From the NCBI GenBank assembly GCA_002633005.1, contig NMRA01000495.1, forward strand, positions 98,837 to 162,836: a stretch of 64,000 nt of DNA, read 5' to 3'. How positions within the stretch are numbered: position 1 is the stretch's first letter; the number at the start of each line of letters is the position of its first letter. The notes below the pieces were generated by a model. The model was given only the letters and a program-made list of their open reading frames with translations, did not search any database and had not been told where the DNA came from. This document shows, one piece after another, positions 4,501-60,638 of the stretch. Both the position numbers and the translations under genes were made by a program. The DNA is from Phoronis australis. Lineage: Eukaryota > Animalia > Phoronida.

Positions 4501-7500
4501 TACGGCAATTTCTAATTTGACTGTCAACGCACTTCGAGCCTGACTTGTAGGACTGGAAAGTTAAGTTTTTTGGTCATGGGTTTTAGAACTTCCAGCCACT
4601 GGCTTGACTCTTAATACTCCGATCACACCAAAGCGGATATAACTTTTAAAACGGATTTAAAGTTTATGTCCGTTGGTCTGAAGTAACACTTAATTAAAAC
4701 CAGAGTTTTAAAAGTTGTATCTGTAGTGTGGTAAAAACCCTCTGTGATGGTAGTTTATCATCAATGCTTTACTGTTAAATCCACCTCTTCACTCCAGAGT
4801 TGACTCGCGCTGTTAACTTTGATTCAAGACCTAAGTTGAGTGGTCCCATTGTAACGAAGTGTCGATGCTTCGCTGTTAAATCCTCCTCTTCACTCTGGCG
4901 TTAAGTGTTCCCATTGCATGCTTCTGGTTAAAAAATATAGACTGATTCGTCACTGAGTAAACGCTTCAAGTGAAAGATGAAAATGGTCATCAGGAAAAGT
5001 GTACACAATGTTAATTCAGTAGTAAATCTTCGCTGTCAGAGATTTTAATTTACTGTAATGGAATAAATTCATATTCAATGCCCAAGTCAATTGTTACTTA
5101 TTAAAAATGTATTAAGCAATTTGTAATTTCGGCACAATTGCACTAAAATGCTGCTCTTTTTAATCACCTTATTTTCTTCCAGATACTCTCCACCATAATC
5201 CTTTGCTTTGTCAGTCCATCTGCTAGTGCCATTCTATCCCTAGTATGTGCAGTTGGGTATGAAACTGCTCTCACTAAGTGGAGGTTAAAAGACAGCATCC
5301 TTTCTGGCTTTGACAGCCATGACTCCAGGGAGGGTTTCCTGAATGCTAACAGAGAGGGCATCTTCTCAGCTATTGGATATTTGTCTCTTTACTTTGCTGG
5401 CATCGTGATTGGCAAATACCTGTTTCAAGCTAGGTAAAGCAGATTTTGAAATAGTGGTCAGCGTTGACTCTAACATTATTCCATGTCTTGGTTAGTGACT
5501 TCATTAATTGTTTTGTTAATTAGTCAACTTTTTGTATGTTAAGCTCTTTTGTGCTTCTGGCTTATAACTGACCACTGAATTCACTGATTTGTAACCACAA
5601 AAAGCTCAACCTTTGCAGAAATGTAGCTACCATATTTTAAAAGATGGCAGGTCATAGGGGTTAGAACCAGTTTAATGCCTGTTGTTCCGTTATAAAGACT
5701 GGTTCTCAAAATGCTAGATCCCTGTAAATGACTATTGCCCAAAATGCTGTCTGGATTCTAAAAATTAAGACATTTACTCATTGCTAGGTATAGTTGCCTA
5801 TTGGAATTTGAAGAATGCTGTATTGTCATTTTTTTCTGTTTTCCAGGTCAAGCTTAAAACAATGGATAACTTGTTTGTTTACTCTGGGAGTTTCTTGTCA
5901 AGGCTTCTACCTGTTATTATTTTATTCAGAAACATTTGTGGACAACGTCTCAAGAAGATTGGCTAATTTATCTTTCATCATTTGGATGGTTAGTTCAAGC
6001 ACAGCTGTTGTGGTACTGTGGTGGTGTAGCAAGAGTGCTCTTGCTTAAGCTGTTAAAAGTGAACTAGGGTTACCTTGTGTGTTTATTATCGTATGGACAT
6101 AACAAATAAGAGCCTATTTAACAGTAGAATGCACAATGGTTCTAAAAGCTATCAGTACATACCACATTATTAACCAGATATTAAATAAATGTTTCTTACT
6201 TGTAGAAAACTGGAGCTTATTTGCGTGGTTGAAAATTTTTGAAGGGTGCACAACATCCATCAATAACTGCTGATTTTAGGTTAAATGCTGTATTCGTTTA
6301 CATGGCAACGGTGGTGACAGGTGGGATCTTCTATCAAATTGAACACTCACGATGAAAAATGGCAAATCTCACAGGTACAATGGTAGGGTTCACCTGTCAC
6401 TTCTACAATATTGAAATAGGTTCTCAGTTTTATCGATATTTCGGACTTGTGTTGGGGTACGTGTCTGGGACGGGTACGAGAATGGCGGTCTGCACTTATG
6501 ATAGTCTTCAGCTGATTGAAATTCGTTGGTGTATAAATTCTGGCTAACTTGCTTATGGCATAAACCAATTGGTTCATTTATTTCTCTCCAGGTGGCGTAC
6601 AATCTCCAGACGTTGACGTCCTTTTGTCTAGTTGATGTTGCTGTGTATGTTTGTCAGAGGTTTAATTACTTAAAGAGAGTTACACAAAAAGGTGGGTGTT
6701 CGATTGATATGTTGTCATTTTGACGTTTTGATTCCAGTCAATTAAAAATTAAATGCCTAAGTTAAAAACAATAATAATAGTACTGCCATCCTGGATTACA
6801 CAGCGACAGGACTCTCCTTTGGTCCGGAGTTAATAAAGGGCGTTGTTTTCATAGAACTAGTTTTGCCGGGCACATTTTCACTGGTCATTTTGGAAACCAT
6901 GGAAATGTTAACGATTTCAACAGTTTAAAAGTACTAGAATTATAAGATATCTTCAAGGAGGGATTCTGTTCGGTTCAAAATTAATGCAATGAACTTGCTT
7001 TATCCACTCCCTCTGCTGTTGATTGATGTCAGAAAGCGATGAACTTAACACCACGCGTGTTGATCAAGTTTGTCCAACTTTCCCTCGTTGGGAGTTGCAG
7101 CCCACAGCACAGCAATAATACTTCGTTTGCATTATGAAGGATGGTTAGAGTAATGCGTCCGAGAAAATCTTGAAAAGAAGAATACCATAACAAGGAATAT
7201 GTGGAACTCCAGTAGTGTGAAAACGCCAGGCTTCAAAAGAACCCGTGGGTAAATGCAACTAGATTCGAGTGTCACTGTGTAATCCAGGACGACCCTGTTA
7301 GGCAGATTTACGTAGCGTTGTAAATTACTAAGCTCGTTGAAAATTATTACTCAGCTACGGACCTGGTAATCTTTCTCAACTCCATGGGAGCATACAGTGG
7401 GGACAACCATTGTGGGAGCACACAGGTTAATCCATACCCATAATTTTGGTAAAAGCTTCAAGTGCTAACGCTGCAATGGTTACCAGAGTGGTAAAAAATC

Positions 7501-8462
7501 CAAGACATGCGAAATTTTTGAAAATGTGATGTGACTGTTCTTTTATTCCTATTTTTGGGTCCAAATCGCGTGGTATCAGAAATAGACATGTATACAGGGC
7601 TTTCTCACCTGAGAGGAAAGGTGCTTTTTGGTTGGGAAAATTCCTTTCCTCGTCGCTGCCAATTTAGGACAGTGTATGGCCAACAAGTGGAATTTTATTT
7701 TTCATGTTTTTCCGTGACAGAGACGCCACACCAATCTAATGCTTTTACAGGTTCAGGTTCTATACTATAGCTAGTTGTTTTGAAAAAAAAGTGATTATTT
7801 TTAACAATGTTGGAGGCACTTGAAAAAATGAAAAAGTAGCAATTTTGGCAATGATTTTTATCCGAAATTGATTAGATTTTGCTGTAGCGTTTTGCAGAAG
7901 AGATTCAAACTTGGTGGAAATTTTGTAATGATTGGAGGAAATTTTGAGCCTGGTGGGAATTTCGAGTGATTTTTAAATATTTTCCATAGGGTAATGGAGC
8001 CGATATTTGGCCCCAAAATTGAGGCATCGAGGGCCCTGGTATAAAATCTTGTGTGTTTTTCCTGTGATATCAGCTTACTCTTGCCCTCATTTCGATCTTA
8101 GCACTCTCACCATTCCAGGGATATCTGAAGCCCATTTTCCTTTTATTATAAGAACCCAGTTGGCCACAAAAATATAAATTTCTGTCACTTTATCAATTTT
8201 GTCTTCTTTGCAATAACCCGATCTGTATATGTTTGTAGACACATTTGTGGAGGAGAGTCGGTGCCTTCTCGAGGCAATCAACAGAAACGGACTGCTCTAC
8301 TTCCTGTTGGCCAACCTTTTGACAGGAGTTGTCAACTTTTCCATGTCAACGATCTACGCCACACCACCTGTTGGATTTTGTGTGGTTTTAGTGTACATGA
8401 CTGTCCTCAGTGCCATAGTCTATTGTATGCACTTGAAGAACATCACAACAAGGTTTTGGTGA
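1402..8462 (+). CDS. PIGW: GPI inositol acyltransferase PIG-W/GWT1, spliced gene, 5' end not established
   Basis: join(1402-1559,3703-3952,4331-4499,5183-5433,5847-5988,6592-6691,8239-8462). All introns are GT-AG with consistent phases, giving ~430 codons. Hallmark motifs: [89 protein letters not shown]. Confidence 0.95.
1848..1898. repeat. 12-bp minisatellite (ttttcctgttca) x4
   Basis: direct reading. Confidence 0.9.
3703..3952 (+). CDS. PIGW: PIGW coding exon
   Basis: [56 protein letters not shown]. Confidence 0.95.
4331..4499 (+). CDS. PIGW: PIGW coding exon
   Basis: [39 protein letters not shown]; ctgcag acceptor, gtacgg donor. Confidence 0.95.
5183..5433 (+). CDS. PIGW: PIGW coding exon
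   Basis: [26 protein letters not shown]; ttccag acceptor, gtaaag donor. Confidence 0.93.
5847..5988 (+). CDS. PIGW: PIGW coding exon
   Basis: [14 protein letters not shown]; ttccag acceptor, gttagt donor. Confidence 0.93.
6592..6691 (+). CDS. PIGW: PIGW coding exon
   Basis: [15 protein letters not shown]; ctccag acceptor, gtgggt donor; phases fit both neighbours. Confidence 0.85.
6783..7297. mobile_element. non-autonomous TIR element in a PIGW intron
   Basis: tcctggattacacagcgaca / tgtcactgtgtaatccagga inverted repeat (19/20 match), TA near both ends. Confidence 0.65.
8239..8462 (+). CDS. PIGW: PIGW last coding exon
   Basis: [28 protein letters not shown]...ITTRFW*; ttgtag acceptor, TGA at 8460-8462. 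Confidence 0.95.
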
Positions 8463-9221
8463 ACATAAAAGAAGTGAAGGCCATTCCTATCATCATCAGC
8501 AAAGAAATAATATTGTGGCATTTCATATGCATTCTATATGAAACCCCAGCACAGCTTACTGTCGCAAAAGATTGGCACTTAGTAATTATCAAGAAGTGCT
8601 ACTCCGAGAGAGAGGACACTGCAGGACCGGAGGTCACCAGGACGTCAGTTTTACTGAACTCTTGGGCCAATACAAGAATTTGTGAAGATCAAGATTTCGC
8701 ATTTGATTTTTGTTAACAAATTTGTCAATGCTTACTGAGGCAAAGTATTTCTGTTCCAAAGTGCACCTCTTTTAGGTGTGTCTGCAGATTGTGGGTGATT
8801 CCACAGAGGATCCATAAGTGGATTTAGGGGGGGCCAATCTCCCTCTCCCCACTGTGGACATTACCCAGCCATTATGTCATTTGTAGGGGTTAGTTGTCAG
8901 TTCCTCCTGCAGGTGGTGCACCTGATTGCTCTACATCACTGAACAGAATCAAACTTTCTTGTGGTAGTCTCTTTGACTGCTTTGCCTTGTCACCACAGTG
9001 CATAGCATGTTTTACCATACAGTGTGGCTGCTTAGAAAACACATTTCTCCATGCCATGGGAGTTGTTTACTGGACTACAAGGACCTCCAGATAATGCAGC
9101 CAGATTCCACAGTTGAACATTGCTTTGTCGTTTGGATTAAGTTAGAATTTTATACCAGTCACCCCTGACGATTTGTACTGGCAGTTGGTATCCAGTGAAT
9201 CTGTTCATGCAAAGTCGTTGA

Positions 9222-9227: not shown

Positions 9228-10520
9228 AAAATATAAATGACAAATAATTGTCAGTTATTAAAACACAAGACAACTAATGACTTGAGTGTATTATTTCCAG
9301 TTTGTTCAGAACCCTTAAACAGCAAACAAATCCATTGTCTATGAAAACAGTACAGCCACACACACATTTGCGTTCTACAAAAATAAACACTTGTAAACTG
9401 ATGACACTATTTTACACACATCCCTGATTTACACACATGAACTACATACTACTGTTCACCTGTAGCGACACATTTGTTGAGCAGTGGCTTGTGATGTGGT
9501 CACGTTCAGAAAGTACTGTAAACATGTTCAACGGGTGCAACTTGATAACAAATTTACTGCTTAATGTTGGTAATTAAATACTATAAATACTACATTATAT
9601 TGGTGATGCAATGCAAAAAATCATGTTCACACAAAATAAAAAAATCTGCTTGAGCTTTTCTTTAATCAACTAAGAGTACAGTCTATGAATTATTTACACA
9701 ATGATATTGCCGACGAGATTCTTCTAGTCTATCTTCAGTTGTTATTTACAAACGAAATGGCAATGCTAAGCCCAACGAGAAGTGAAGTTCAACACTTTTG
9801 TCACAAAATCCTAGGGTCCGAAATGGATAATTCTGCAACAAGAGGTTTGCGAATTTTAGAATCCAGATAAAACCTATGAATAAATGACGGAGAACCACTT
9901 GTAAGGCTGGCGTGGAATGATTGATGCCTACTTACTAAGGCTGCTGTGACTTTCAACCTTAATGACTTTCTGGAAGGCGGAAAGTTTTACTAGTTGGTTG
10001 CAAGCCTTTACTATTGTGAACCAGCAAAAAATAAAAACAAGTTTTCCATGATTTGTGTCCCCCTAAAAGAGTTATTGAGATTCGTTGGATAACAAGCTCA
10101 AGGACTTGCAAGTCTGATGCTTTGCGCCAACGTGATAAGTGATTTGAATGCTACAGTGGTGTTAAAATTACGGGGGAATTCCGAAGTGAGTAGAAGACGA
10201 GTATCCACAGAGGTCCTGTTCTGAGTCCAGAATTCCAACCCCTTGCACTTGAGAAACTTTTAGAATTCCAATAATGATTTAACACCAGAAAAAACGTCCT
10301 GAATGAAGGGCGTGTGAGTGAAAGAAAGAAATTATCGCCAGGAATTCCCGCAACGGTCGTCAATGAAAGGTTGAGTTCTGTACACGTGTTGTCGCGAGTT
10401 TCTTACATCTACAGGACACAACCCTTTTTCTACTGCACAAAATCCAGACAAACAATGACACATCTTGTTACTCATACTGCATTGATTTGAGCACCGTCTC
10501 CTTAAAAGTTGCCCAGAGCG

Positions 10521-10652
10521 TTACGACGTTTTGGCGTGCGTCTGTACGTCCATGACGAAGTTGTATAGTTTCAGCGCGGGTCCAAGCTTCAAGGACAAGC
10601 CAGTGAGAACGTCGTTTCGTCGGAGAAGAAGCAACGACTGTCCGTCTATTTC
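10521..10652 (-). CDS. SAMD1: exon 8: SAM domain C-terminal half and stop
   Basis: [43 protein letters not shown]. Confidence 0.94.
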
Positions 10653-13600
10653 CTGCAAAATAAATTTTACTCATCGGTTAACAAAGGCAATTCTGCATTA
10701 GCCGCAGTAGCCAAATGTATTTGCCTGGAGACTTTTTCCACCAACTTCAGGTTACGTAAGACCTTATGGACAAGCCGAAAATCCAAACTATATATCTTAA
10801 CTCCGTAAATGTATACATTTTTTGAAACTAGAAAGCAATTAGATTTTTTTTTCTTTTTTCCCATCAGTATATAATACGGCCAGGTGACTGTGTACATTTG
10901 GTAGAACAGTAAAATTTAGAAAAACGGAGAGGTACACTGATGGCACAACAAAGTATAAATTACGTTACCAAAATTTGAAAGAAATGTCCAAATTGTTTTC
11001 GTTTTATGTAAATTTTGTTTTTTCATGAAGAGCTACAAGTCTTATTTTTGATAGCCAAATATGCGAAAGTGAAACATTGTAAAAGTAGTTCCTAACACGT
11101 TTTGGAGAACTGTAGAAAGCACAGTATCAGAAAGTTTCATTATCTGATCAATCATTTCTGAGAGGTACAGTGTTGGGAAGTTATTCAACAATTTGGACAT
11201 TTGTCCAGAGTGTGACTTAACCTTAAACGAAGCAAACGCGGCTGAGAGCAGATTTAGATGAATCAACCTGTAAACTACATAAACAATCAAAAGATGTCAT
11301 TTTTCAAAATGTTTGTCATATTCACCTGCTCCTTGAAGTTATCCGCCTGCTCTTGGAAGCCGAGATCTGAAATATACGTCATAACGTCGTCAATTGACCA
11401 AGTGGCGGCGTTCGTGACGCGAAGTCTGGTTGGGAACGCCTTGAGAATAACTTCTTGTTTCACGTTGCCGTTTCTTCCCTGTGTCGTGTCTAACAAGGCG
11501 CTGTAAGTAAACGGAAATCGTGCACATGACGGAAGGCCTCCTTAGCTGCTCGAGATTTGGATAAGATAACGTTTCGTGAAACTTGGTTTCGAACAGAAGG
11601 TTTCCACAAATAACCTTGATTAGATTTTTGCAAAAAATAATGAAATCGTAAGATTGAAATGACCAGACTGACAGCAACTTAAACGCAGTTTTGATATTTC
11701 GATATTAATGAGTCGATCGCTGACTTGTCAAAACAACTTTGTTTTCTAAACTCGCCGATATACAACTCTCATTAAGTCACTACTTCCAAAAGATTATGCA
11801 AGAACATTACATTCCCTAATAGCCATGTCATTATTTAAGATACCTGCTTAGTTTTCGTTAAAACCTCGATCATTAAGCGACTTGCAACACAAAAACTAGA
11901 CGAATATCTTTCTAGAAAATGCTGTTTCGACCTGACGTCTAATTTTTCCCATAAAGGAATTAAGCTTTGATTCTTAAATTCAAATTCAGCGTGGTCAACA
12001 GGAATTTGGATATTATCGTTCACATTGAGTAGTTGCACATTTAAAATTCGTTATTAAAACATGGACGGAATAAGAGGGAACAAACGCGACATCTTTCCTT
12101 CGAAAATTGTGTGGTTGACATCCTTGCCTCGCCAGGGCAAATACCGCATATCAAAATACCGAAGGTACCCAATAGGCTACAGCATACTCTAACCCTGGAG
12201 AAGCTCAACCCAAAATCGTAAAAGAAGTCCCACGAAATTATAAATGTTCGGGACAAAGGAAAGTCGCTGATGGGCATACGATTCGGTTTGTGCGAAAAAA
12301 ATGAGTTCATTAAAATAGTATTGCGGTTTTTGAGAAATAAGTTAACTTAATGAGAAAAAAAAAACGCTGTTAATGAAAACATCTGGACTGATTGTCTACC
12401 CTAACATAAATATCTACATGTATACCTATGTAATTATTTATGTATAAATAAGAATCCGGGTCTTGTTGTTTTAAATATGTAAATCAACGAAAATCTTTAA
12501 ATATCTACCCTCAACATACTCCGTGATTAACCGCACCAAGTCGGTAACTTACCCGCCCATCTCTGTGATCGGTGAGTCGCACGGCGTTGGCAGGCACGAG
12601 GCACCAGAGAACAGCTCTGAAACATCATTGATAAGTAAACTCCAGGAGCCTTTTTCGTGAAACGTGACGTCAGACAGAAATTTAAATTTTTGACTCCCAC
12701 TTCCTAGTTGCTAATAAAGGTTTAGCCCAGTAATTATGAGTCTAGAAATAATTATCTCGGTAATTAGCTGTTACTGTAATATATTCTGAGACTTAAACGT
12801 TTGCTCGCGATGCAAACAACAGTTTGGCACTCTTCAGTGTTGAACACTACATATTTGAAGAAAGACCTATTAGCAAAGTATGCAAACTCTTCTGTCACAG
12901 GAAGTGGGCGGATCAGACTTCAACTAACAACAATCTTTATTAAAACTTTTTGGTATCTCCGACAATAATTTGGTTCTTAGCGGGCCGTGAAAGTGCCCTT
13001 CCCAATTCTTTAGCAGCATAGGTTACGACAGTGTTGTCTTTGCTCGCATAAATGTACCTGCGGCGTCCGTTTCCTCCGGCGACCCATTATCCGAATTGAT
13101 TTGAACCGTAAGCGGACCTTTCCCAGTCAGCTCGATTTGACCTCCGATGGGCGGAGACTCGTCAAACGTCACGCCTTCGTCCACGCACTGTGCACATGCC
13201 CACTTTCCTACACAGGCAATATAAATCAAGTAAATAGAAAAACTGCTAACAACTGTAGGTCACCATGAAAATGCTCAAAACCAGTGGCAACACAAAAACA
13301 ACACTCGACATACAAAGCTCACTGACTTATCAACATTCGCATTCAGAAAGTAACATGCGCGCGCGCACCCAGCCTAAAAATGGGGGGCTCGAATTTTTTA
13401 GAATGTGGACCTTTTACTAATAAATAACGGGGTACCGTCGTTCAGAGCTATGAATCGTGCATTCGCCGAATTTTTGGTGGACTTTTGTCTCGTTTTCTAC
13501 TTTTTCGGACTCTGGGGCGGACCTTTTTGCCCACTTCGCCAAGTGAGCCCCCCGGGTGCGCGCATGAGTAATCAAGCGTTTTGGTAAGAAATTTCTTTTT

Positions 13601-16600
13601 CATGCATCATAACGAAAAACAATCGCAGCTGAGGCCTGTTTCATTAAAATGTAACTTTATGACGTTCCTTACACATAACCTAAAGGGAGGCTTACGCAAT
13701 AAAACGAGTGGCTGTAATTACTCGTTTAGGCTCTGAACTTAACTGTCATAAAGTTACGGCATTTCAGTGAAACAAGGACCAACGGAACGCATCACAAAGT
13801 AAATCACGTGACCTGCTCAAACAGATAAACCCTAAGAAGAACATTATAAGAAACTACGACTTAAAAGCGGCACATTTCTTGCTTATATTATATTGAACAC
13901 CCAATCCTGAAGTAGACCAGGCTACGTGCCTGTGCCGTCCACAAGTTGACCCCAAGTTTCCTTTTCGAGACGTCGTTAATCAATTTATGTTTCAGTGACA
14001 AATCGATGTGTCAACGCTGACAAAATTAGATGACAATCAGCTGGCTTTTTATACTGGCACATCTACCGTGAACCTAACGTAACTTAATGTTCAGACCCCC
14101 AGATCAAAATCAGGCCCCAGTGTCGACTTCCCAATTTCTGCAATGAGGTAGTCAAATTCTAGTCCAAGTACACGTAGGGCACTTAGAACCCAGAACAAAC
14201 ACAGAATGTAGCGCGTTTCAAAAGCAGGGACGACCGGGGGGGGGGAATGAGTGGCGTGGCGCGACAGGGAGAGGGAGGCGAAGAGGTGACCGGGGAGTGA
14301 ATAGCACTTTTTTTGAAAACGAGGGTAACCATACCTGATCAACCTTAAGGCCCAAAAACCTAAAATGGCACCAAATCCAGTTTTGGCCTATTAACACATA
14401 TTTTTAAAACCACGTTCCCATCTAGTTCTCTGAAACAAAATAATGCTTTGTAACCCTCGACATCCCTCAAATGTTTCGCGTAAAATTTGAAAATTCCTCG
14501 CAAAGTATGCCAAATGGGCAACCGTGACCTACGCTTTAAGCGAGTTACGCGACAACCGTAGGGAAAGACCAACCATCAAGAGTCATAATATCCTATCAGT
14601 GACAAAAAGCACGAGTTCTTATTTGAAACCTGCTTTTATCACTCAGGTGGGACGCCAATGGTGTATTAGCACGTGACAGAACGAGCATTGGCTGAAATCC
14701 CCAAATCTAGGAATAATAGTATCCTTTCAAACGGTAACTGCAGATCCGGTGCGTGGCTGGAAGCTAGTCCTTCGAAGCCATCAGACATTACGTCACACTA
14801 GTCGCTTCCTCATTACCCATGACAACTGTCGGATCTTAACTGTAATGTGTAATCACTTCTTTCCATTGCCCCTTTCCGGACGCGAGTAGGCCTTAAAATC
14901 GGCGTGTTGACGGTATTTTTGCCGTACCCGTCTAAATTCACCGCCCCAATACTCCTTGAATACCCGTTGTATACATGTATAAAAACAAAAGAAAGCTCAA
15001 GTTTCTATGACGAGAAAATTGTCAATTTTCATTTTCCAATCGTCACAGCAATCAAGCGTAATTAATGTCAAGGCTGTAACATCGGTGTCTCATAACTTAA
15101 CACGAATAAAATTTGATCCATTATGTGTCTCTTGCATGGCGAATACGTACTCACTGTAATGAAAGCATTGCATTGTCATTGGATAGCGCTTTTAAAGAAA
15201 AATTGTTTTAATGGGATCAATGTCCGTACATCGTTTTCAACCAAATATCCATGATTAAGAAAAAAAAAATGAAAACGCGTTCGTCATTCTAATGCAATAG
15301 AATTCAATAAACTACTACAAAAATACTTTTAAGAAGTCACAACGTTTCAAGCGCAGAATTTTTCTATTTCGTTATTTTCGTTTATGTCTGTAATTAATCT
15401 AGGACAAAACACGGTCAGCTCGCTTTTGGTCTGCGCACACAGATCGGAACCCCACTCATAAATGTCCTTATCACGTAATGGAATTTGTTTCCTAATTATG
15501 CAGGAAAATAAAAACGCTTCAGGGTTGCGACTCCTTGACGCAAAAATTTATAAACCTACTGTGTTCACGTGCTTTGCTTGTAATGTATGGCGATATCTCG
15601 CTAAGTTTTGCGTTTTTGCAAGGTTCTCGCGTCTCGGGAACGTAGCTCTCACAAATAACATTTTATTACATCACTTGAAGTGGTTTCGATTGAATTTCAA
15701 TCATGCGCGCAATAAAATATAGGGTTGCTCGATTTTTTCACAATGCAAATCTTTTAGTGGAAAAATCAACGAGGACTAAAAAAAAACAAAAGAAAACGGG
15801 GCCACCAGGATCAGGCCTACGAATTGTGCATCCGCGTCGAATTCCTGCGGACTTTGTGTACTTTTGTCTCGTTTACTCGGACTTTTTGCTTCACTGAGGC
15901 GGACCTTTCGCCAAATTGGGGGGCTCGCCCCACCTGGGTACGCCCATGTCAATAGTGGAACAGGATAACCACGTCGTCACATCGATTTCGGAACAAATTT
16001 CGATCTAAACAACAAAGCTTTTTAGCCGAGATGGGCTTTGTCACTTCCAAGCTTTTTGGACCGACGCCAAGCGCTTAGCGGTATTGTAACATCGCACGAT
16101 ACGGGAAATCTGCATTCTATCTATGATACACAACAATGCGATCGATATACTATATACAGTGGCAAGAAAGTTACAACCCGTTTTTTTAGTAAAATTACAT
16201 ATCCATGGTTACCTTGGAGAGACATTTCCCCAGTTAATTTGTGTTTCATTTCCGCGTACCTGCTATCCATGGATGAATGGAAAGTGACGTAAACGGTCCA
16301 GCAAAAAGCCCTCATCTTGATTTTGCACTCACTTCCATGCAGCAAACAGACTGACCGACAACGACAGCTGAAGTACATTGCGTTTGTTCCATGTAAGTGA
16401 ACGGAGAACCAAGATGCGGTCCCTTTGTTGAGCCATTCGCGTCTCATTCTGCAGGTCACAGGATGGCAACTACACTGCAGTGGAACCAGTAATTAACAGC
16501 GAAAACGTGTCTCAAACATAACCAGAGTTGTGTATTACAATTAAAGGTAACCTCAGAAATGTTTGCGGCCTTTAATGCATCCTATATTCGGGATAGACAA

Positions 16601-19600
16601 TCATCCATCCCCACAGCCCGCAAGGGTGATCTGAATAACAGAATTCTTTTTTCATAAATGCTCGTGTTTTTTCACGAGCTGCAGTTCTTTTCTCACTTAC
16701 TGCAATTTTAACCTATTCTCGCCATAAATGATCCAAATTGAAGAGCACAGACATACATGTTTATGATACGTTAAATTATGAATCGTATTACTTAGTACCA
16801 AGAACGAGCAACTCGTTGTCCTGTGAGAAAGCAAAGAAATGCCGTGTACACTAAGCGAATTGAGTTCTAAAGAACAGAACTGGGGTTAACGAGAAAGGAA
16901 CTACCTTTCAAAGGGGAACAACTGAGTTACGGCGTTAATGAGAACAGTTGCGCGGAAGGAAGATTGTCTAATTCTATAATGAGATGTAAACACTCGGCCA
17001 CGTACCCTTGGGTTTCTCAGTAATGGTAGGTACATGACATTTCATGTGGTAACCCTTGTCGCACGCGTCACAAAACAACATGGCGTCCTGAAAGTACAAC
17101 CGAGTACATGGTCATTATAGCCGTCGAAATAATTAATCACCTAAATTTCGCTCTGCTTACCTGGCCAAAAAAAGGCAAAATACATTAGGTCTTCTATTCT
17201 CGCGAAATCTCGGTCTCTTAAATAATATTCCCTTCCGTGATAGGATTCTATTTCCGTTACCAACGCATTACAGACAACGCGTACTTCCCACATTTTTGAA
17301 TTCGCAGTTTTAGGGTTGGCCAACCCAATAAGCTCTCAAGCGTTTTCTTGAGTCGCTGATTATTTCGACGTTCTGGTTGGCAACGGAAATAAAATCCTGT
17401 CACGGTAAGGAATATTATGACACTGTTCAATGAGAATAAAATGACAGGGCGAGAATGTAGCATTAATAATTCTGAGTTTTGGGAGACTAACAATGAAACT
17501 TGTTACCATGAATATCCAGTCTGCTCGCTTTCTTTACCCTAATTATTTCCACTTTCAATTTCATACGGTGTCAACTCGCAGTAATGTGGTTGGTATGTAG
17601 GGAACAACGTGCAGTTTTCAACGGAAATTCCTTACAAAGAAACTAATTGTACAAATAACATGATATTAATGTGCTTGCAAAACGTAACCAAGCTTCCAAA
17701 TACGTCACTGAAACAGAAATTATCAGTAAGAGTTAAGTGTGACTTCATCAACCCGCCTCCAACAGACGCGAAAGGAGACAGTTTCAGTAGTAGGTCTCAG
17801 ACAATGTGCAGCTTACCGGATCGCCAGCATCTTGACAAATGAAGCAGGTCTTACAGTCAATACATTGCCACGGGGCCCGTCGAGCTCGACGAGCCAATGA
17901 CTCGGAGTAATCCATGCAGGAGGGATGAGCTGAAATAATACACATGTGGCGATATAAATCTTTTAGGCACGTCACTCAAGGTGTAAAGGAAGGATCTCGA
18001 TAAACTCGGTCAATATTTTCATTTCATTTCAACACGGTAATAACCCATAGTATTTGTCCTGGATGTCCGTTATGCACAAAATTACAGCGAAATTAATCTT
18101 CAATGAAGTCTAACGAGAGGGAGACTCCGTCGTGTCTTCACTATAAGGGAATAAAAAATTACAGAGCTGACTTGACCAAGAAATTGATCGGAAACCCGAC
18201 TACTCGACATGTTTCTTTGTAACGAAGGGAACAAATACCATGGAACCGACCAACAATAAGATGATCAAAAAAAAAAAAACGCCGCCATCCTCTTATTCAG
18301 GTGGCATATTTCTGATCATGTGCTAATGCAGCTGCTAGGTATAACGAGACTGGATGCAGATGGAGTTTACGGGGCCAGGAGGCCCCCCCTCGCCCCCCCC
18401 CCTCAACCACTTGTGTATCGCTCCAATGGAAGCACGTGTCTGCCCACTTATCGGACACCCTCTGGCCATGACACCTGAACGGTGACTATGATATTTAACA
18501 GAATGGTTAAGTATTATTGACTTAGGCGTGTTTGCATCATTTCCTGTTTAATGCAGCACGCGGACAGTATGTAAACGAAGCAACGCTCAAGAAAAAACGA
18601 CAACAGGAAGAATGTTGCTTTTAGTGCGACTGTAGAATTTCATGACAATTTAATGACCTCTTTAGGTGGACAAAAAGAAGTGAGACAACACAAAGAAACC
18701 ATGCAACAAATTGTCCAAGTTACAAACCATTTTAATCGTTCGCGCCTTCAAATCGAAAATTATCCGACGTTCTACTGAATTCCGCCTTAATACAAATGGC
18801 CTATTAGAAGGAGACGCCTCGATCTTTCTGTCGTTAACAGCTAGAAGAGGATGCTGTACTCCTTATCTTTTTGGCTACTGTAGTAAGCATGTTCGTGTAG
18901 TTTTTAGAAAGTAGAGGAGGACCCCACTAATATATTTATTATTTATTAGAGGGGGTGCAGGGCCCTTGTCAATAGTTAGAGGGCGCACTTTGTCACTCCA
19001 ATTGTACCTTTAGCATTGCAGTCTATACACACGAGTAGGTCCTCGCTTTGCCCGTTACGCTTCTTTTCCGTCTGCAAACAAAAGTCACACATTCGTCTCT
19101 CGTTGGCGGCGGGATCGTACGATTCGAAGTCCGGCCCATGGTTCTTCTTGATCCGCTGAAACAAATAACGGTGGTTTGTTCTGGGAATATCATCGACCAG
19201 AGAGCACTTCGGGGAGTAATCCCGTTTGTTGGTTATGTGGAAGTGGGTCGTTTAAACGTGTTATTTTTCAGCGAGATCTCACTGTTGGAGTCCCATCACT
19301 CGCCAAATATTGCGGTCATGTCAAATTATTCAAACAAGAACTCAAGGAAGGGCAAAATATACAGATTGGTGAATTCACGGGGCAAATATATAGGGGTACT
19401 TGAGTATCCCAGTACCTGTGCCCTAACGAAGCATTTACCGTTACACAGGTCAAAGTTTACGTCACCACCTGAAACGAACAGAATGATGCGACGTTTGTTT
19501 GTTTACTCATCGTTGCTTGGCAAATCATGGCGTTTCAACATGGGCGGAGCACCATAGGGGGCTGGGGGGAGGCTACATCCCCCACTTTTTTCAGTGCTGT

Positions 19601-22600
19601 ACCGCCCATAGACCATGGGCGGTGCACCACAGGGGTCTGGGGCATAAGTCCCCCCCCCACTTTTTTCAGTGCTGCGCCGCCCATGTTCAAACCTAATCCT
19701 TGCGTGCTTTTTGTACCTTTTAGAGCACACACACACACACGCACACACACAAACACACACACACACACACGAGACCTTGACTGAAGTCGAAACGGGCGGG
19801 CGTTTTTTTACTTTTTAGTCGGTGAGCACAGGTCTAAAAACGAGGCAGGTGAAAGACAAAAACCGACTTTGCCGCCTTTTTCCTTGATGGAGCGATGGTG
19901 GCATCTTTCACTTACGTGCAGTAAGCCAGACGTGAGATTCGCGCATGTTTGCGTTTCTATTGATCGCTTTATTCTCGTTTCGCTGGTACACCAACAGACT
20001 TACTGTAGCTGAAGACATTTATATGTAGCGTTGGTTTCCAAGGGCGAAGCTAATTCTTTTTAGCAGGTAAGCTTACACCTCCGGAGGGCACTCGACAATA
20101 TTTTGAATAGGTGTGTCACGGTGAACTGGAATACCGATCCCTTCACCCTTTTTGTTGATGAAGTAGAAGTTTCCCAAAAAATAATCATTTTGTAGAAGAT
20201 GTTACAACATAGTTATTTATTGAATAAAAATGATTAAGCATTCTTTGCACTCTATTATTTTTAATAAGAACACCCCCTTTTTAACACAAGTGGGGAATTT
20301 AATCGTAAAAATACACCTTCCAAGGGAATCCGGATGTGAAAAGTCTTGCCTCTTCGCAACACGTCCCGTATATATCACCTATGTAAGTATACCCCGGGAC
20401 CTACAAACTAGTCTCAGCTGGACCAGATCCAGGGGGGTCAATGGGGTCCGTAACCACCTCAGCCACTTTTAATTTACTGCAATAGAGGGTCTAAAGCCCA
20501 TCTTTATGTTCGAAAACTGCCGAATCAACCTCGTCAAGATCTTGAATCCACTCCAGCTTCGACAGTTGGGGAGCAGTAGACCGCTGTAATAATGTGCCTC
20601 ATGAACGTTCTACGCGCAGTGACAAAACAGTGACATACACCCTACCACGGAGGCATTAGGGAGAGGAACAATTCGTGAACGACTCCTTTTCCGAATTTTT
20701 GCTAACACGTGGGCACGTCAAATGCTAGCACGTGTGTCTAGAACTTACAGTCACTGCATCCGCGCCGCCACCAACAAAGGATGCAAACTAAATGCTCCCG
20801 TTTCTCGTGAGTTTGCCACAAACAGAATGTTCTACCGTTATTAATTTCCCCGAGGGTTTACTCAATGAGAGCTAGCCTTCATAAACAAGCGACGTAAAGT
20901 GTGACTCCAGAGCGCGATCCGGAAATCCAAACTGCTTTGCGCTTTACAAGTACTTTATGTCATGGTCATGAATCCACGCCCAGACTGATGTCTGGTCATT
21001 TATTCCCGTAAGAGAACACGTAGACGCTAGCGTTGGATTACGTAGTAAATGTTTATGTCTACTGATACAAACAACAAAAAAATTGTGGGCTTGAGTTTTG
21101 ACTTCATATTTAAAGCCAGAGCATTCTCGCAAACTATTATGTGGTCATCATGGCGGAGTTTGGCGGGTAACAATTTGACGAGGCGCATTGTAGGTATTTG
21201 TTTTACGGGTAAAACTCTTTTTAATAAATATGAGTCATCTCCACCCACCGTTTAGAAAGTACTCAAAATCATTTGCAGATGAACTTTGGAAAACTGAAGT
21301 GGATTCGAGCAAAAATACCGCTCAGTAGCCTGTAAATCAAGAATATCTGCCTTGTCATCATGCTGGCGAAATTATTAACGCACGGCGAGCCTGACGATTC
21401 GCGCAGTTGAGTTAGCCGTTACATTAATTACGCGTCGTGCGACCCACCGGCTCAACAATAAACCGGTAATTTGCGATATCTTCTACGATTACAGTTCCGC
21501 TGCGGATAGCGAAAGAAATGGGTCATTTCAAGTACGTTTCACGATGTGTTTGTCAACGTCACTCCAAATCCGTGACGTCAACTGATGCTGATACTTAGTC
21601 GTGAGCGGATTTTTATACTGTGTCCATGAATTTAGGTGATCGTTATTTAAACAGGATTCAATGAAACTGTTGTGCTGTATCGATTTCCGTGATCGCTATG
21701 GTAACATAATTGTTACGTGGCGGATTACGAGAAGACAGTTTGATCGTTAGGACGGTAAAAAATAACGGGTAACTTTTATACTCTCTCAAACGTTGCACCA
21801 TATCAATTCGAACTCACTCGCGTTTACTTTGCGTAGATTTCGTAAAGTACACGAGTAAATAGCCAAAATACTCAACGCGACACACTTCAATATTCAAATA
21901 TGGTATTGAACGCTTCCTTGATTTAAACAGCCAGCTTCCGCGAAGTCAGTCACCGCCGGGTCATTTTAAATAAAAATATAAGGGCAATCGATATGATATT
22001 GGGTCGTTGTTATAAGGTTGAGCGCACATAAATTCACGCACTGAGAACGAACCGACAGCGGAACAAGCCGACAGAAAACGGAAAAACAAAAGCACAAACA
22101 TTTTGGCGTCAATTAGGTGTATAAAGAGCAGAAAAAACAATAATTTGTTTTAGAACGCAGAGTTAAATCTAAGACATGTAAACGTTTTTTTTTTCAAGTT
22201 GGAATGAGCGTTCGAACGAACACAAACGGAAAATGCGGAGGAGCTAGATTTGGTTCGGTACATTTTACCACATTGCGAAGACAGCATGGCGAACTAACTT
22301 CGGAAATTCGAACTGTAACAATCCGTGTGGTTGTAATGTTTATGCTTATATTTCGTACTGTTCACCAACGTTTCAACATTTTGGTATCCAACAGATGTCA
22401 AATTCTACATGCAACTTATAACTGACTGTTTGTTAAAAAATATCGCTTAACACGTAGACTCACGAATGCGTACATAGTGGCGATAACGCGTAGTTGGGGC
22501 CGCAAAATAACATGATCGTACGCAGGTCATCATTTTTTTTCGTTGTACTAAAAGGATACGCTGTTAGGCAAGAGCTGGGGCGGTCTGTGGAACGCTAAAT

Positions 22601-25214
22601 ATTACCCTCCTCTCCAATTTTTAGTGTACATCGTAATCCAACACACACACGCACACACACTATTGCACGCAAAACCTATCTAGTCAGAAAGCGCAATTAC
22701 ACATGAGAACACAACACTGCGTGACATCAATTTGAGTAAAGAATATGCGTAACTGATCGTCGGACTGAAGAGGAAAAAATGCGTACACGCAGTTTAACCA
22801 TGTCTAAACAGCTTGGGGTATAAACATGGCGTCTGACCTAACTAGACCGAGGGCGTAAGAGTGACGGTCATCATGCCTTTATCGGGTGAATGTGGAGATT
22901 ACGAGCGCGCTTGACAGTCATCACGGAGCACCATTTTATAACGACGCGAGTGGTGTGGTTTCCGAGCGAGAACAGTAAATACGCGCCGGACATTTCGGCT
23001 TACCTAGTTTGAATTGCAAAGTGAGGTCACTCTACTCCTTAACTGATACAAGAATAGCTTCAACACGAATCAAATAGGTGATAGCGGCGACCGAGGAAAA
23101 TTCAATACGAAGGCTAAAGCGTTTCAAAACCTTCCCACTCACTTTCTAGTTGATGCCGCGTCTCTCAACCATTTTGCTATAACAGCTTTCGAGACAACGC
23201 TACTGATGTTTAGTCCCTGAATTTTTGGTCACAGAGACATTTCCGGAAATTTTTTTGAATGAAAGCAAGCCAAAGGGTGAGGCGGGCTATTATTGGTGAC
23301 TTATTCAAACATGGGGGATGTGAAAGATTAGCGAAAAGAGCATTAAGCAGCATTTATCAAACTAAACTTTGTGATGAAACGATTACGCTGGTTTAGTATT
23401 TGGAAACAATTTTTGTGTAGGTGATTTAGATCTCCCATAACACCACCGTGTTTTTATCGCAAGACATCGGTTGGTTCGCAAAAGCGCGCGCGGAACAAGT
23501 TTTTTTTTCAATTGGGACATTATCGCGCCCGCGTTCTGTAAATACCGGCGGTCCGCAAAATGTTTGACAATTAGAATTTTCAAGGTGATAACAGAATATT
23601 TCAGTGACCAAGTCACGCGCACGGGGTTAACGCAAAAACAGACTGAGGTAACCTTTCCAAAACGTAAGGAATTAAAAATGACACTATAGGATCGAACTTG
23701 CGGATTATCGACGAAGACTATCTGCTTACTAAGTTACAAAGGGTGAATCACGCTTTTTAGCAGTTTATATAAATATCCATCTCTGACCTTACCGCAGTAT
23801 TTCTCGTGTCGATCGACAGACGCCCTAACGCACATATCGCCCTGGCCTACTACACTTGTGCGCGTTGTATAGTGCAAGACGTGTGAGTTGAAAAACAATT
23901 ACGCATTCAACTCTACGCATCGATTGAAACGGGTTTAATCACAAAGCGAAAACCAAGGACACAACGTCCTAGTAGCTCTTTGTGTGTTCGTGTAGGCCTA
24001 CGACATCACTCTATTCCGGGTCCACGCAGAGTAGCATTTTGCGGTACATCATAAACACAAACGAAGCCAACTTTTGGTACTTTACCAATAAACTGGATAG
24101 TAACGTAATTTCGCACACGTTCATGACAACATTTATACATTAAAGCGGTTATCAACTCGCGTTCAGCCGAACAAGCAAACTTTTGATTTAGACCCCTTTC
24201 TCCCTATAAAATTGAAGCCAGCTTGTTCACTGCTTCGATGAGAAGCGATTTTGGGCTTCGCAAAGAACTGACATATCGGTTACTCCTTGAGACCGCATAC
24301 TCGGCACATAAAATGACACGCCGTGATAAGTCAACTTGTACAGTCCGGTCTCAAGCAACAAGCAACAGCCAGTTTTTTCGAAGGCCTCAAATCATCTCCA
24401 GTTTGGCAAAGGATCAATTTCAAAAACGTAAGGAGTCCAATCAAAAAATTCTTTTCGTTATGGAAGGCGCAGGGGTTTATAGCCGCTTAAAAGAGATTTT
24501 TGTTACTAAAGGTTATACCTTTCTTTTCGAGAACGGTCTTCCTCGTTTTGGTGAACCAATTTCAGCACCATCGGAGTGGGTTGACTTATTTGGACTTTTG
24601 GGTGTGGGACTCAGTTTCGCTAATTTCGCACTGGTGCTGTGGCCCCCTGTAGGATCTGAGAGGGCTCTTTTCAACGCTGTTTTTGTGGAGTTTGACATGC
24701 CAGGCTTTGGACCGCGCTTCAGTGTCAACGAATAATTCCCATTGGCAAGCTTTCTCATTTTTCCTATGTCCACTTCACGATTCAAAGCCTCTTTCAGAGT
24801 TTCGTTCAGTAAATAGGTTTCCTCCTTTTGACGCACGAGCCAACTTTCGATGTCGTCAAGCGGAACGCCTTGTTTTGCGTCAACACACTTTTCTACGACA
24901 AGAGAACGAATCGCTTCAATAATTCTTTCACTTACGTCTTTCGAATTCAAAATCTGACCACCAAGATGATGTTTTCTCCATTTTGCGCCATTTCTATAAC
25001 TAGTTGACCCCTTGTATTCCACTTTGACGACGTCGCCCGAGTCCACAAGTTTCTCAATGTGCCCTTCCGTCTCCGAGGCCTTGAGTCCGTATTTGCGCTC
25101 GAGCATGTGTGAGATTCGCTCAAGATCAGGACGGGCTTTCCGTTGGCGCAGCTGGTCGATTGTTTCAATAATTCGTTCCTTGACACTTCCTTGATTTGTT
25201 GTTACAGTTTTCAT
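10521..25214 (-). CDS. SAMD1: SAMD1-like chromatin protein with KAT6-type N-terminus: WH1 + H15-like WH2 + AT-hook-like motif + double PHD finger + SAM domain, 519 aa
   Basis: complement join(25214-24519,19155-19008,17929-17817,17087-17006,13207-13058,12616-12553,11500-11326,10652-10521) = 1560 nt, open from ATG to TAA, all introns GT-AG. The WH ([17 protein letters not shown]...YKGSTSYRN) and SAM ([32 protein letters not shown]) match recalled SAMD1/atherin; the DPF matches recalled KAT6A/B. Confidence 0.9.
11326..11500 (-). CDS. SAMD1: exon 7: SAM domain N-terminal half
   Basis: [25 protein letters not shown]; ttacag acceptor, gtgaat donor. Confidence 0.92.
12553..12616 (-). CDS. SAMD1: exon 6: 64-nt linker exon
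   Basis: [21 protein letters not shown]; tttcag acceptor, gtaagt donor; needed to reconcile the phase of exon 5 (1) with exon 7 (2). Confidence 0.8.
13058..13207 (-). CDS. SAMD1: exon 5: end of PHD2 plus linker
   Basis: GKWACAQC completes the C4HC3 finger; gtgtag acceptor, gtacat donor. Confidence 0.92.
13354..13566. mobile_element. MITE family A (CATGCGCGCACCC termini), 5-bp TSD AGTAA
   Basis: agtaa|catgcgc...gggtgcgcgcatg|agtaa; the internal ggacttttgtctcgttt core is shared with three other copies. Confidence 0.85.
15702..15948. mobile_element. MITE family A copy, TSD TCAAT
   Basis: tcaat|catgcgcgc...gggtacgcccatg|tcaat. Confidence 0.8.
17006..17087 (-). CDS. SAMD1: exon 4: PHD2
   Basis: [27 protein letters not shown]; tttcag acceptor, gtacgt donor; absent from the ORF track. 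Confidence 0.94.
17817..17929 (-). CDS. SAMD1: exon 3: PHD1/PHD2
   Basis: [37 protein letters not shown]; tttcag acceptor, gtaagc donor. Confidence 0.94.
19008..19155 (-). CDS. SAMD1: exon 2: start of PHD1
   Basis: RIKK...[27 protein letters not shown]; tttcag acceptor, gtacaa donor. Confidence 0.92.
19539..19685. mobile_element. MITE family B (CATGGGCGG termini), head-to-tail dimer, TSD TTCAA
   Basis: Two ~72-bp units (19539-19610 and 19614-19685) inside a single ttcaa duplication. Confidence 0.8.
19726..19769. repeat. (CA)n microsatellite
   Basis: direct reading; explains the VC-repeat ORFs. Confidence 0.95.
24519..25214 (-). CDS. SAMD1: exon 1: SAMD1-type winged helix, H15-like winged helix, AT-hook-like/basic tail
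   Basis: 232 codons from ATG 25214; ends [11 protein letters not shown] at an aag|gtataa donor. Confidence 0.93.

Positions 25215-60592: not shown

Positions 60593-60638
<46 letters not shown>

What the first reader, a model, noticed from the sequence alone, without database searches (positions are those of the whole stretch)
10521..25214. SAMD1/KAT6 'missing link': WH1-WH2-double PHD reader module joined to a SAM domain with no MYST acetyltransferase
Seen in sequence: one phase-consistent 519-aa ORF over 8 exons carrying WH1, an H15-like WH2, a DPF and a SAM domain. Established: vertebrate SAMD1 is WH plus SAM only and binds unmethylated CpG islands as a repressor; KAT6A/B carry WH1-WH2(H15)-DPF-MYST. 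Here WH1 and SAM are SAMD1-type ([10 protein letters not shown], YKGSx[19 protein letters not shown]), while WH2 and the DPF occur in KAT6 order. Inference: this is an ancestral or invertebrate SAMD1 retaining the whole KAT6 reader cassette. It would be a catalytically empty, SAM-oligomerising reader of CpG DNA and the H3 tail that could compete with KAT6. It suggests vertebrate SAMD1 lost WH2 and the DPF. Automatic annotation would probably mislabel it 'KAT6-like'.
Basis: partly seen in the sequence, partly recalled or inferred. Interest (0 to 1): 0.85.

Follow-up and report, generated by a model that had tools for sequence, protein, structure and literature searches.

The report
Ancestral four-domain form of SAMD1/Lint-O
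This is a real, spliced animal gene for the full-length invertebrate form of the likely gene repressor known as SAMD1 in vertebrates and Lint-O in flies; it shares its DNA- and histone-reading front end with the KAT6 enzymes, and the same design is common from corals to amphioxus, although we found no paper describing it.

Summary
In detail: 8 exons, 519 aa, all 7 junctions seen in RNA reads. The order is WH1-WH2-double PHD (DPF)-SAM, with no MYST. It is not a rare 'missing link'. It is the standard invertebrate member of the SAMD1/SAMD13/Lint-O group, found in coral, protostomes, echinoderms, hemichordates and amphioxus, mostly mislabelled 'KAT6-like'. WH1 keeps 8 of 9 SAMD1 DNA-contact residues; SAM keeps 13 of 14 polymer-interface residues. 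WH2 is homologous to KAT6 WH2 (hhalign 96.6%). (1) Vertebrates lost the DPF, but fish SAMD1 and shark SAMD13 keep WH2. (2) The DPF is not simply KAT6-like: the acyl-lysine pocket glycine (MOZ G237) is Ala here and Gly in 1 of 213 family rows, and WH2 is not basic. Fly Lint-O is published as PHD-PHD-SAM, so flies and mammals appear to have lost opposite halves. Likely mechanism: it binds unmethylated CpG plus unmodified H3 tail, polymerises through SAM and recruits L(3)mbt to repress. Ten literature searches found no description of the four-domain form. An ordinary gene, but a useful unpublished synthesis.

The parts
24519..25214 (-). Exon 1 (aa 1-232): ATG, WH1, WH2, basic low-complexity linker
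24978..25187 (-). WH1 (aa 10-79), SAMD1-type CpG-binding winged helix; 8 of 9 SAMD1 DNA-contact residues identical (R56 is H36)
24723..24959 (-). WH2 (aa 86-164), winged helix homologous to KAT6 WH2 and to the fish SAMD1 small helical domain; net charge -2
19008..19155 (-). Exon 2 (aa 233-281): basic motif and first half of PHD1 (first Cys at aa 255)
17817..17929 (-). Exon 3 (aa 282-319): A282 (MOZ G237 position), rest of PHD1, start of PHD2
17006..17087 (-). Exon 4 (aa 320-346): PHD2 core with the two H3R2-binding aspartates D326 and D329
13058..13207 (-). Exon 5 (aa 347-396): end of PHD2, acidic linker
12553..12616 (-). Exon 6 (aa 397-417): conserved linker motif L-P-T-P-x-x-S-P (12593-12570), shared with fish SAMD1 and shark SAMD13
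11326..11500 (-). Exon 7 (aa 418-476): N-terminal part of SAM (from aa 448)
10521..10652 (-). Exon 8 (aa 477-519, stop): rest of SAM; with exon 7, 13 of 14 SAMD1 polymer-interface residues identical
9280..10520 (-). Probable 3' UTR (approximate lower end)
   Evidence: same-strand RNA coverage continues below the stop codon; end not mapped

Best explanation
This spliced, expressed gene encodes the full-length invertebrate member of the SAMD1/SAMD13/Lint-O group (WH1-WH2-DPF-SAM, no enzyme domain), which likely acts as a chromatin repressor adaptor that binds unmethylated CpG DNA, self-associates through SAM and recruits L(3)mbt. Steps: (1) WH1 binds unmethylated CpG (inferred from conserved contact residues). 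(2) The DPF binds the H3 N-terminus when R2 and K4 are unmodified, and probably reads K14 acylation weakly or differently from KAT6 because the pocket glycine is Ala (predicted). (3) WH2 may add nucleosome or protein contacts; it is not basic, so strong DNA binding is doubtful (weak inference). (4) SAM forms head-to-tail oligomers and hetero-oligomers with L(3)mbt/L3MBTL3-type SAM domains, giving avidity and repression (inferred from fly and mouse relatives). History (inferred): the WH1-WH2-DPF cassette was duplicated before the cnidarian-bilaterian split, one copy going with MYST (KAT6) and one with SAM; vertebrates lost the DPF, some later also WH2, and at least some flies lost both WHs.
For: Gene and splicing are shown. 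WH1 scores 65 bits to SAMD1 WH against 26 to KAT6A WH1 and sits with vertebrate SAMD1/SAMD13 against 8 KAT6 rows at 100/100. The family SAM profile scores 114 bits to SAMD1 SAM against 63 or less to L3MBTL3, PHC3, Ph and Scm. DNA-contact residues from PMC8115922 section 7: 8 of 9 identical. Interface residues from section 12: 13 of 14 identical, M496 being L; these include the EH-surface residues R498, L502, L509, G510, L513 and K514 that bind L3MBTL3 (PMC11969672 passages). Lint-O binds L(3)mbt SAM-to-SAM and co-represses (PMC9535798 passages); insect four-domain homologues are named Lint-O by NCBI (P0038, P0046, P0121, P0400). 169 of 185 non-vertebrate rows with WH1+DPF+SAM also score WH2 at 15 bits or more. 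The coral Montipora has all four domains. Family WH2 against KAT6 WH2: 96.6%, E 6e-10; cross and reversed controls 6.4% or less. In the WH1+SAM tree vertebrates fall in a deuterostome group (86/80). A linker motif shared with fish proteins occurs in 92 of 269 SAM-bearing rows against 0.42 in shuffles. 0 of 270 SAM-bearing rows carry MYST.
Against: No binding or repression was measured for any four-domain protein. The Drosophila Lint-O sequence was not among my hits, so the link to it rests on NCBI names, the paper's domain description and one named dipteran (Hermetia, DPF+SAM). In flies an 8-Cys-to-Ala PHD mutant still repressed, so histone reading may be dispensable. The SAM-only tree is unresolved, and the coral row falls inside vertebrates on a long branch. 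The DPF cannot be assigned to KAT6 alone: profile scores are KAT6A 135, PHF10 130, DPF2 122, KAT6B 121, and in the DPF tree the one d4-type row groups with KAT6 apart from this family (100/99). Zebrafish Samd1 binds mammalian chromatin poorly, and fibre formation needs a mammal-specific region, so mammalian behaviour may not carry over. Of the 39 'vertebrate' rows only 5 clusters were named by a look-up; the rest were assigned by a sequence motif. Rows include isoforms and near-copies.
Confidence: 0.72

Rival explanations
1. It works mainly as a catalytically empty KAT6 competitor: the same WH1-WH2-DPF cassette occupies the same acetylated CpG promoters and blocks KAT6.
For: The cassette is collinear and homologous. 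MOZ WH1-WH2-DPF alone reproduces full-length MOZ occupancy (PMC9908889 passages). Both families occur in the same species (Owenia P0020 and P0286).
Against: WH1 differs from KAT6 at 4 of the 9 contact positions in all 120 KAT6 rows (R45/Q, Y87/N, R94/K, R43/K). The DPF pocket Gly is replaced. WH2 charge is -2 against +1 to +9 in 14 KAT6 rows. Studied relatives act through L(3)mbt.
Confidence: 0.15
2. The DPF still reads acylated H3K14 like MOZ and DPF3, so the protein is drawn to active promoters and tunes them (it could be activating or poising rather than silencing).
For: The other pocket residues are kept or conservative: W302, I305, D306, M287 for L242, D256 as in DPF2. The predicted fold of the brittle-star homologue matches MOZ, MORF and DPF3 DPFs at TM 0.7-0.8 by target. 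Ala is small.
Against: G237 is called the most important residue for forming the pocket and is present in all six human DPF proteins (PMC7800603 passage); the family has Ala 159, Val 31, Phe 10, Tyr 10, Ile 1, Gly 1, unassigned 1 of 213.
Confidence: 0.25
3. The resemblance to KAT6 is convergent domain shuffling: WH1, an H1-like WH and a DPF were assembled separately in the two families.
For: The DPF tree does not pair this family with KAT6 to the exclusion of d4; WH2 matches many WH folds at similar Z.
Against: Three domains are each homologous and in the same order with similar spacing in one continuous profile alignment (E 2.4e-53); WH2 matches KAT6 WH2 but not either WH1.
Confidence: 0.08
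4. Mis-joined model: the SAM exons belong to another gene, or a MYST exon is spliced in.
For: No single long read spans the gene.
Against: All 7 junctions are in RNA; no MYST in the window; the same architecture occurs in hundreds of proteins.
Confidence: 0.01

Closest known systems
Vertebrate SAMD1 (atherin); PMC8115922, PMC11969672
   Same: SAMD1-type WH1 (8 of 9 DNA contacts) and SAM (13 of 14 interface residues); no enzyme domain; fish forms share WH2 and the linker T-P-x-x-S-P motif.
   Different: This protein has a DPF (0 of 39 vertebrate-type rows do); it lacks the mammalian Pro/Ala-rich region; hedgehog SAMD1 lacks WH2.
Drosophila Lint-O (CG2662); PMC9535798
   Same: Two PHD fingers followed by SAM; beetle, wasp and moth proteins named Lint-O belong to this family and have all four domains.
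   Different: The paper describes no winged helix in the 446-aa fly protein and names SAMD13, with doubt, as its human counterpart. The fly sequence was not examined here.
SAMD13
   Same: Zebra-shark SAMD13 isoform X2 (P0183) is WH1-WH2-SAM with the same linker motif, 61% identical to the window protein over WH1+SAM.
   Different: No DPF. Human SAMD13 is described as having SAM and no PHD; that it is a short SAM-only protein is recalled.
KAT6A/KAT6B (MOZ/MORF), fly Enok; PMC9881136, PMC9908889
   Same: Homologous WH1-WH2-DPF in the same order.
   Different: No MYST; SAM instead; WH1 of the other subtype; DPF pocket Gly replaced; WH2 not basic.
DPF1-3 (d4) and PHF10
   Same: DPF fold and zinc ligands; H3R2 aspartates.
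   Different: No WH or SAM in those proteins (established); the review PMC8538644 lists six mammalian DPF proteins and, in the 2 of 5 parts read, not this family.

Membership tests
SAMD1/SAMD13/Lint-O group | N-terminal SAMD1-type WH with the CpG-contact residues | tested here: met
   Pfam PF21524 E 2.9e-27; 8 of 9 residues; groups with SAMD1 against KAT6, 100/100
SAMD1/SAMD13/Lint-O group | C-terminal SAMD1-type SAM with ML and EH interface residues | tested here: met
   114 against 63 bits or less; 13 of 14 residues
SAMD1/SAMD13/Lint-O group | Orthology by phylogeny | tested here: inconclusive
   WH1+SAM tree roughly follows species groups but most forks are weak and coral is misplaced; no SAM outgroup, no fly sequence, no synteny
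SAMD1/SAMD13/Lint-O group | Binds unmethylated CpG, oligomerises, binds L(3)mbt/L3MBTL3 and represses | not testable with these tools
   inferred from relatives only
KAT6/MYST acetyltransferases | MYST catalytic domain | tested here: not met
   no MYST in the window or in any of 270 SAM-bearing rows; RNA junctions leave no room for one at 35% share
KAT6/MYST acetyltransferases | WH1-WH2-DPF N-terminal cassette | tested here: met
DPF (double PHD finger) acyl-lysine readers | Tandem C4HC3 fingers in the DPF fold | tested here: met
   zinc ligands in sequence; PDB profile hits E 1e-38 to 1e-33; homologue model matches MOZ/DPF3
DPF (double PHD finger) acyl-lysine readers | Pocket glycine (MOZ G237) | tested here: not met
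   A282 here; Gly in 1 of 213 family rows, 120 of 120 KAT6 rows
DPF (double PHD finger) acyl-lysine readers | Acidic pockets for unmodified H3R2 and K4 (D282, D285, I-E-C-K niche) | tested here: met
   D326, D329 and I305-D306
Linker-histone (H15)-like WH2 | H1/H5 globular-domain fold and profile | tested here: inconclusive
   Z 9.1 to H1, tied with STN1 and other WH domains; no Pfam hit for the window's WH2; coral orthologue passes PF00538

The most novel reading that the evidence does not exclude
Early animals had a matched pair of chromatin regulators built on one duplicated reader cassette: KAT6, an activator that reads acylated H3K14, and this SAM protein, a repressor whose DPF has a narrowed pocket and reads the unacylated tail. 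H3K14 acylation would then switch CpG-rich promoters between the two. Vertebrates, where CpG islands alone give specificity, dropped the DPF; flies, without DNA methylation, dropped the winged helices. SAMD1, SAMD13 and Lint-O would be reciprocal truncations of one ancestral L(3)mbt-recruiting protein, which answers the Lint-O paper's open question about its human counterpart.
Probability: 0.25. Interest if true: 0.72.

Novelty: new variant of a known kind. Interest (0 to 1): 0.45.

Why it matters
It ties together three separately studied proteins (SAMD1, SAMD13, Lint-O) and shows that SAMD1 and KAT6 share not just WH1, as published, but a three-domain cassette older than bilaterians. It gives a seventh type of DPF domain, lost in vertebrates, with a natural change at the key pocket residue, which is a cheap and direct binding test. 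It identifies Pfam's 'SAMD1 small helical domain' as the KAT6 WH2 homologue. It also flags many invertebrate database entries wrongly named histone acetyltransferases. Against this: the gene in this window is one of hundreds, and another window of this scan has already yielded the same family.

Tried and rejected
No whole genome is held for this window, so paralogues and the host's KAT6 and L(3)mbt could not be checked. The sequencing-run search listed no holder on record as RNA; the raw-read rows were laid instead. The first lay at 88% likeness was swamped by intronic repeats and showed 1 of 7 junctions; the stricter lay showed all 7. The Atlas did not hold the window's WH2; the chiton homologue returned only clusters of this family and KAT6. 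An apparent WH1-WH2 similarity of 84% came from one mis-cut row and fell to 5% when fixed, so internal duplication is not supported. I recalled that the DPF intron positions here match human KAT6A and DPF2; two searches and one look-up did not confirm it, so it stays an unverified lead and is not used. An alternative THAP first exon, as reported for another genome, was sought by tblastn with two THAP-bearing homologues: nothing better than E 0.48. The SAM-only tree was uninformative. The Drosophila sequence was not among the listed hits of any search. No complex prediction was run: the window's SAM spans two exons and the pair has solved templates. Supplements of PMC8115922 could not be read and may hold a cross-species WH alignment; figures in all papers were not seen. 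Literature searches for the architecture or the orthology; 'SAMD1' with 'Lint-O' returned only the Lint-O paper, where whole-word SAMD1 occurs 0 times. Subscription journals are mostly not in the library.
Full report
1. The observation. Raw stranded RNA reads of three runs from one study show all seven junctions at these coordinates (2 to 19 reads in the best-covered run for each junction, junction 1-2 in two of three runs). Coverage on the same strand continues about 1.2 kb past the stop. Reads are short, so the full-length transcript is inferred from a chain of junctions. A KAT6 MYST query finds nothing in the window (best E 0.28) while the KAT6 N-terminus finds exons 1, 3 and 4. No whole genome is held. 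The closest named proteins are from a chiton (50%) and a brachiopod (46%), so the host is probably a lophotrochozoan; this is an inference.

2. How common it is. Exon 1 found 49 longer proteins among 2718 candidates. A 24-sequence profile found 748 at E 1e-10 or better among 7989 candidates, best 120 listed, and 499 50%-identity clusters at E 1e-30 or better, best 150 listed. With domain profiles cut from that alignment, 162 of 259 rows then held (window model included) had all four domains at 15 bits or more; later, 169 of 185 non-vertebrate WH1+DPF+SAM rows had WH2. Rows include isoforms and near-copies. Named carriers include coral (Montipora), flatworms, molluscs, annelid, brachiopod, nemertean, bryozoan, chelicerates, myriapod, insects, echinoderms, hemichordates and amphioxus. 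Most are labelled 'histone acetyltransferase KAT6B-like', some 'atherin', and several insect ones 'Lint-O'. None of 270 SAM-bearing rows has MYST. So this is the standard invertebrate form, not a rare intermediate.

3. Domain by domain. WH1: Pfam SAMD1_WH E 2.9e-27; 65 bits to the SAMD1 WH structure against 26 to KAT6A WH1; the model of exon 1 (mean pLDDT 80) matches 6LUI best; the WH1 tree splits 8 KAT6 rows from 36 rows holding the window, vertebrate SAMD1/SAMD13 and insect Lint-O at 100/100. Of nine DNA-contact residues of SAMD1 (PMC8115922 section 7) eight are identical. WH2: a confident winged helix, Z about 9 to H1 and to unrelated WH domains. Family and KAT6 profiles align continuously over WH1, WH2 and DPF (E 2.4e-53). 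WH2 alone matches KAT6 WH2 at 96.6% and either WH1 at 6.4% or less; reversed controls give under 0.2%. Its net charge is -2 (family median 0 in 27 rows) against +1 to +9 in 14 KAT6 rows. The papers disagree on KAT6 WH2: MORF WH2 binds DNA and the nucleosome dyad (PMC9908889 passages), while a supplement title of PMC9881136 says KAT6A WH2 does not bind DNA. DPF: profile scores to solved DPFs are KAT6A 135, PHF10 130, DPF2 122, DPF3 121, KAT6B 121; a brittle-star homologue's model matches them all. The H3R2 aspartates and the K4 niche are kept, but the MOZ G237 position, described as the key residue of the acyl-lysine pocket and present in all six human DPF proteins (PMC7800603 passage; pocket list also in PMC7797077), is Ala here; among 213 DPF+SAM rows it is Ala 159, Val 31, Phe 10, Tyr 10, Ile 1, Gly 1, unassigned 1, against Gly in 120 of 120 mostly vertebrate KAT6 rows. 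In the DPF tree KAT6 and the single d4-type row group apart from this family (100/99); PHF10 was not available, so the DPF's nearest relative is not settled. SAM: 114 bits to SAMD1 SAM against 63 or less to other SAMs; 13 of 14 interface residues (PMC8115922 section 12) identical, including the surface that binds L3MBTL3 (PMC11969672 passages).

4. What was lost where. Among 39 vertebrate-type rows (picked by a SAM-tail motif; 5 clusters named) none has a DPF and 15 keep WH2 at 15 bits or more, including zebra-shark SAMD13, chimaera, carp and lungfish; hedgehog SAMD1 lacks it. The fish domain matches family WH2 at 98% and KAT6 WH2 at 92% and is Pfam PF24971 'SAMD1 small helical domain'. A linker motif of the form hydrophobic-hydrophobic-T-P-x-x-S-P occurs in 92 of 269 SAM-bearing rows against 0.42 in shuffles, in invertebrates and fish alike. 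In a WH1+SAM tree vertebrates lie in a deuterostome group (86/80), although coral is drawn into them on a long branch. In the other direction the fly Hermetia and the hydrozoan Clytia have DPF+SAM with no WH detected, and two unnamed rows carry THAP instead. Drosophila Lint-O is described as 446 aa with two PHD fingers and SAM; it binds L(3)mbt SAM-to-SAM and co-represses germline genes, and its authors were unsure of a human counterpart (PMC9535798 passages). I did not hold the fly sequence.

5. How it most likely works. Shown: gene, splicing, domains, residue conservation, distribution. Inferred: WH1 binds unmethylated CpG; the DPF binds the unmodified H3 N-terminus, probably with little or altered K14-acyl preference; SAM oligomers raise avidity and recruit L(3)mbt, giving repression (confidence 0.72). 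The window has CpG observed/expected of about 0.4-0.7 at both ends and about 1 from 10 to 44 kb, the pattern expected of a mosaically methylated genome. In such a genome unmethylated CpG is common, which would explain why extra readers are kept; this is speculation. Against a tidy link with methylation: Tribolium keeps WH1 and Clytia lacks it (their methylation states are recalled, not checked). The fly 8CA mutant still represses, so histone reading may be dispensable. Pure competition with KAT6 is possible but less supported.

6. What is known. Published: the WH1 relationship between SAMD1 and KAT6 (PMC9881136 passages; PMC9908889), SAMD1 mechanism (PMC8115922), Lint-O (PMC9535798). SAMD1 is described as having orthologues in most vertebrates (PMC9944271 passage). 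Not found in searches or in passages of PMC11969672, PMC8175269, PMC13449738 and bioRxiv 2022.04.29.490092: the four-domain architecture, the shared three-domain cassette, the SAMD1-Lint-O link, or WH2 in fish SAMD1. I saw passages or named sections only, no figures, and most subscription journals are missing; the supplements of PMC8115922 were not readable.

7. Verdict. A real gene, correctly read. It is an ordinary member of a widespread invertebrate family whose full-length form appears undescribed: a new variant of a known kind, interest 0.45. The value lies in the synthesis (reciprocal truncations of one ancestor; a DPF with a changed pocket) rather than in this locus.

Noticed in passing
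window 3675-8459 (+): Exons of a PIGW/GWT1 inositol acyltransferase gene (Pfam GWT1, five pieces), convergent with this gene; opposite-strand RNA coverage near 9000-9200 suggests the two 3' ends lie close together.
   Followed up: partly
window 52511-61361 (-): Exons with EGF and laminin G domains, an EYS/crumbs/agrin-like gene; 52511-52825 and 54763-55128 give the same EGF hit pattern on either side of the N gap at 53052-53295, possibly a duplicated exon or assembly artefact.
   Followed up: no
window 12570-12593 (-), exon 6: The conserved linker motif L-P-T-P-x-x-S-P (92 of 269 rows) resembles an Fbw7-type phosphodegron such as that of c-Myc (recalled); Lint-O is unstable without L(3)mbt. 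Untested.
   Followed up: partly
P0183 (zebra shark SAMD13), P0202, P0207, P0218: Shark SAMD13 is a full WH1-WH2-SAM protein, and Pfam PF24971 'SAMD1 small helical domain' is the homologue of KAT6 WH2.
   Followed up: yes
P0160, P0171: Family members with THAP in place of the winged helices (THAP-DPF-SAM); no THAP exon found in this window.
   Followed up: partly
P0188: An 850-aa unnamed protein made of several degenerate copies of the SAMD1-type WH1 without DPF or SAM; possibly a repeat-borne or mis-predicted gene.
   Followed up: no
window 13361-13542, 15787-15908, 19540-19690: Short interspersed repeats in introns, heavily hit by reads of both strands; 19540-19690 contains two similar G/C-rich units, possibly a MITE-like element.
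   Followed up: no
window 10000-44000: CpG observed/expected near 1 over about 34 kb, against 0.3-0.7 on both sides: this gene body looks unmethylated while its neighbours look methylated.
   Followed up: partly
P0006/P0021, P0051/P0066, P0062/P0067, P0022/P0096: Several lophotrochozoans list two divergent copies of this gene; the two Sinanodonta entries have consecutive locus tags, suggesting tandem duplication.
   Followed up: no
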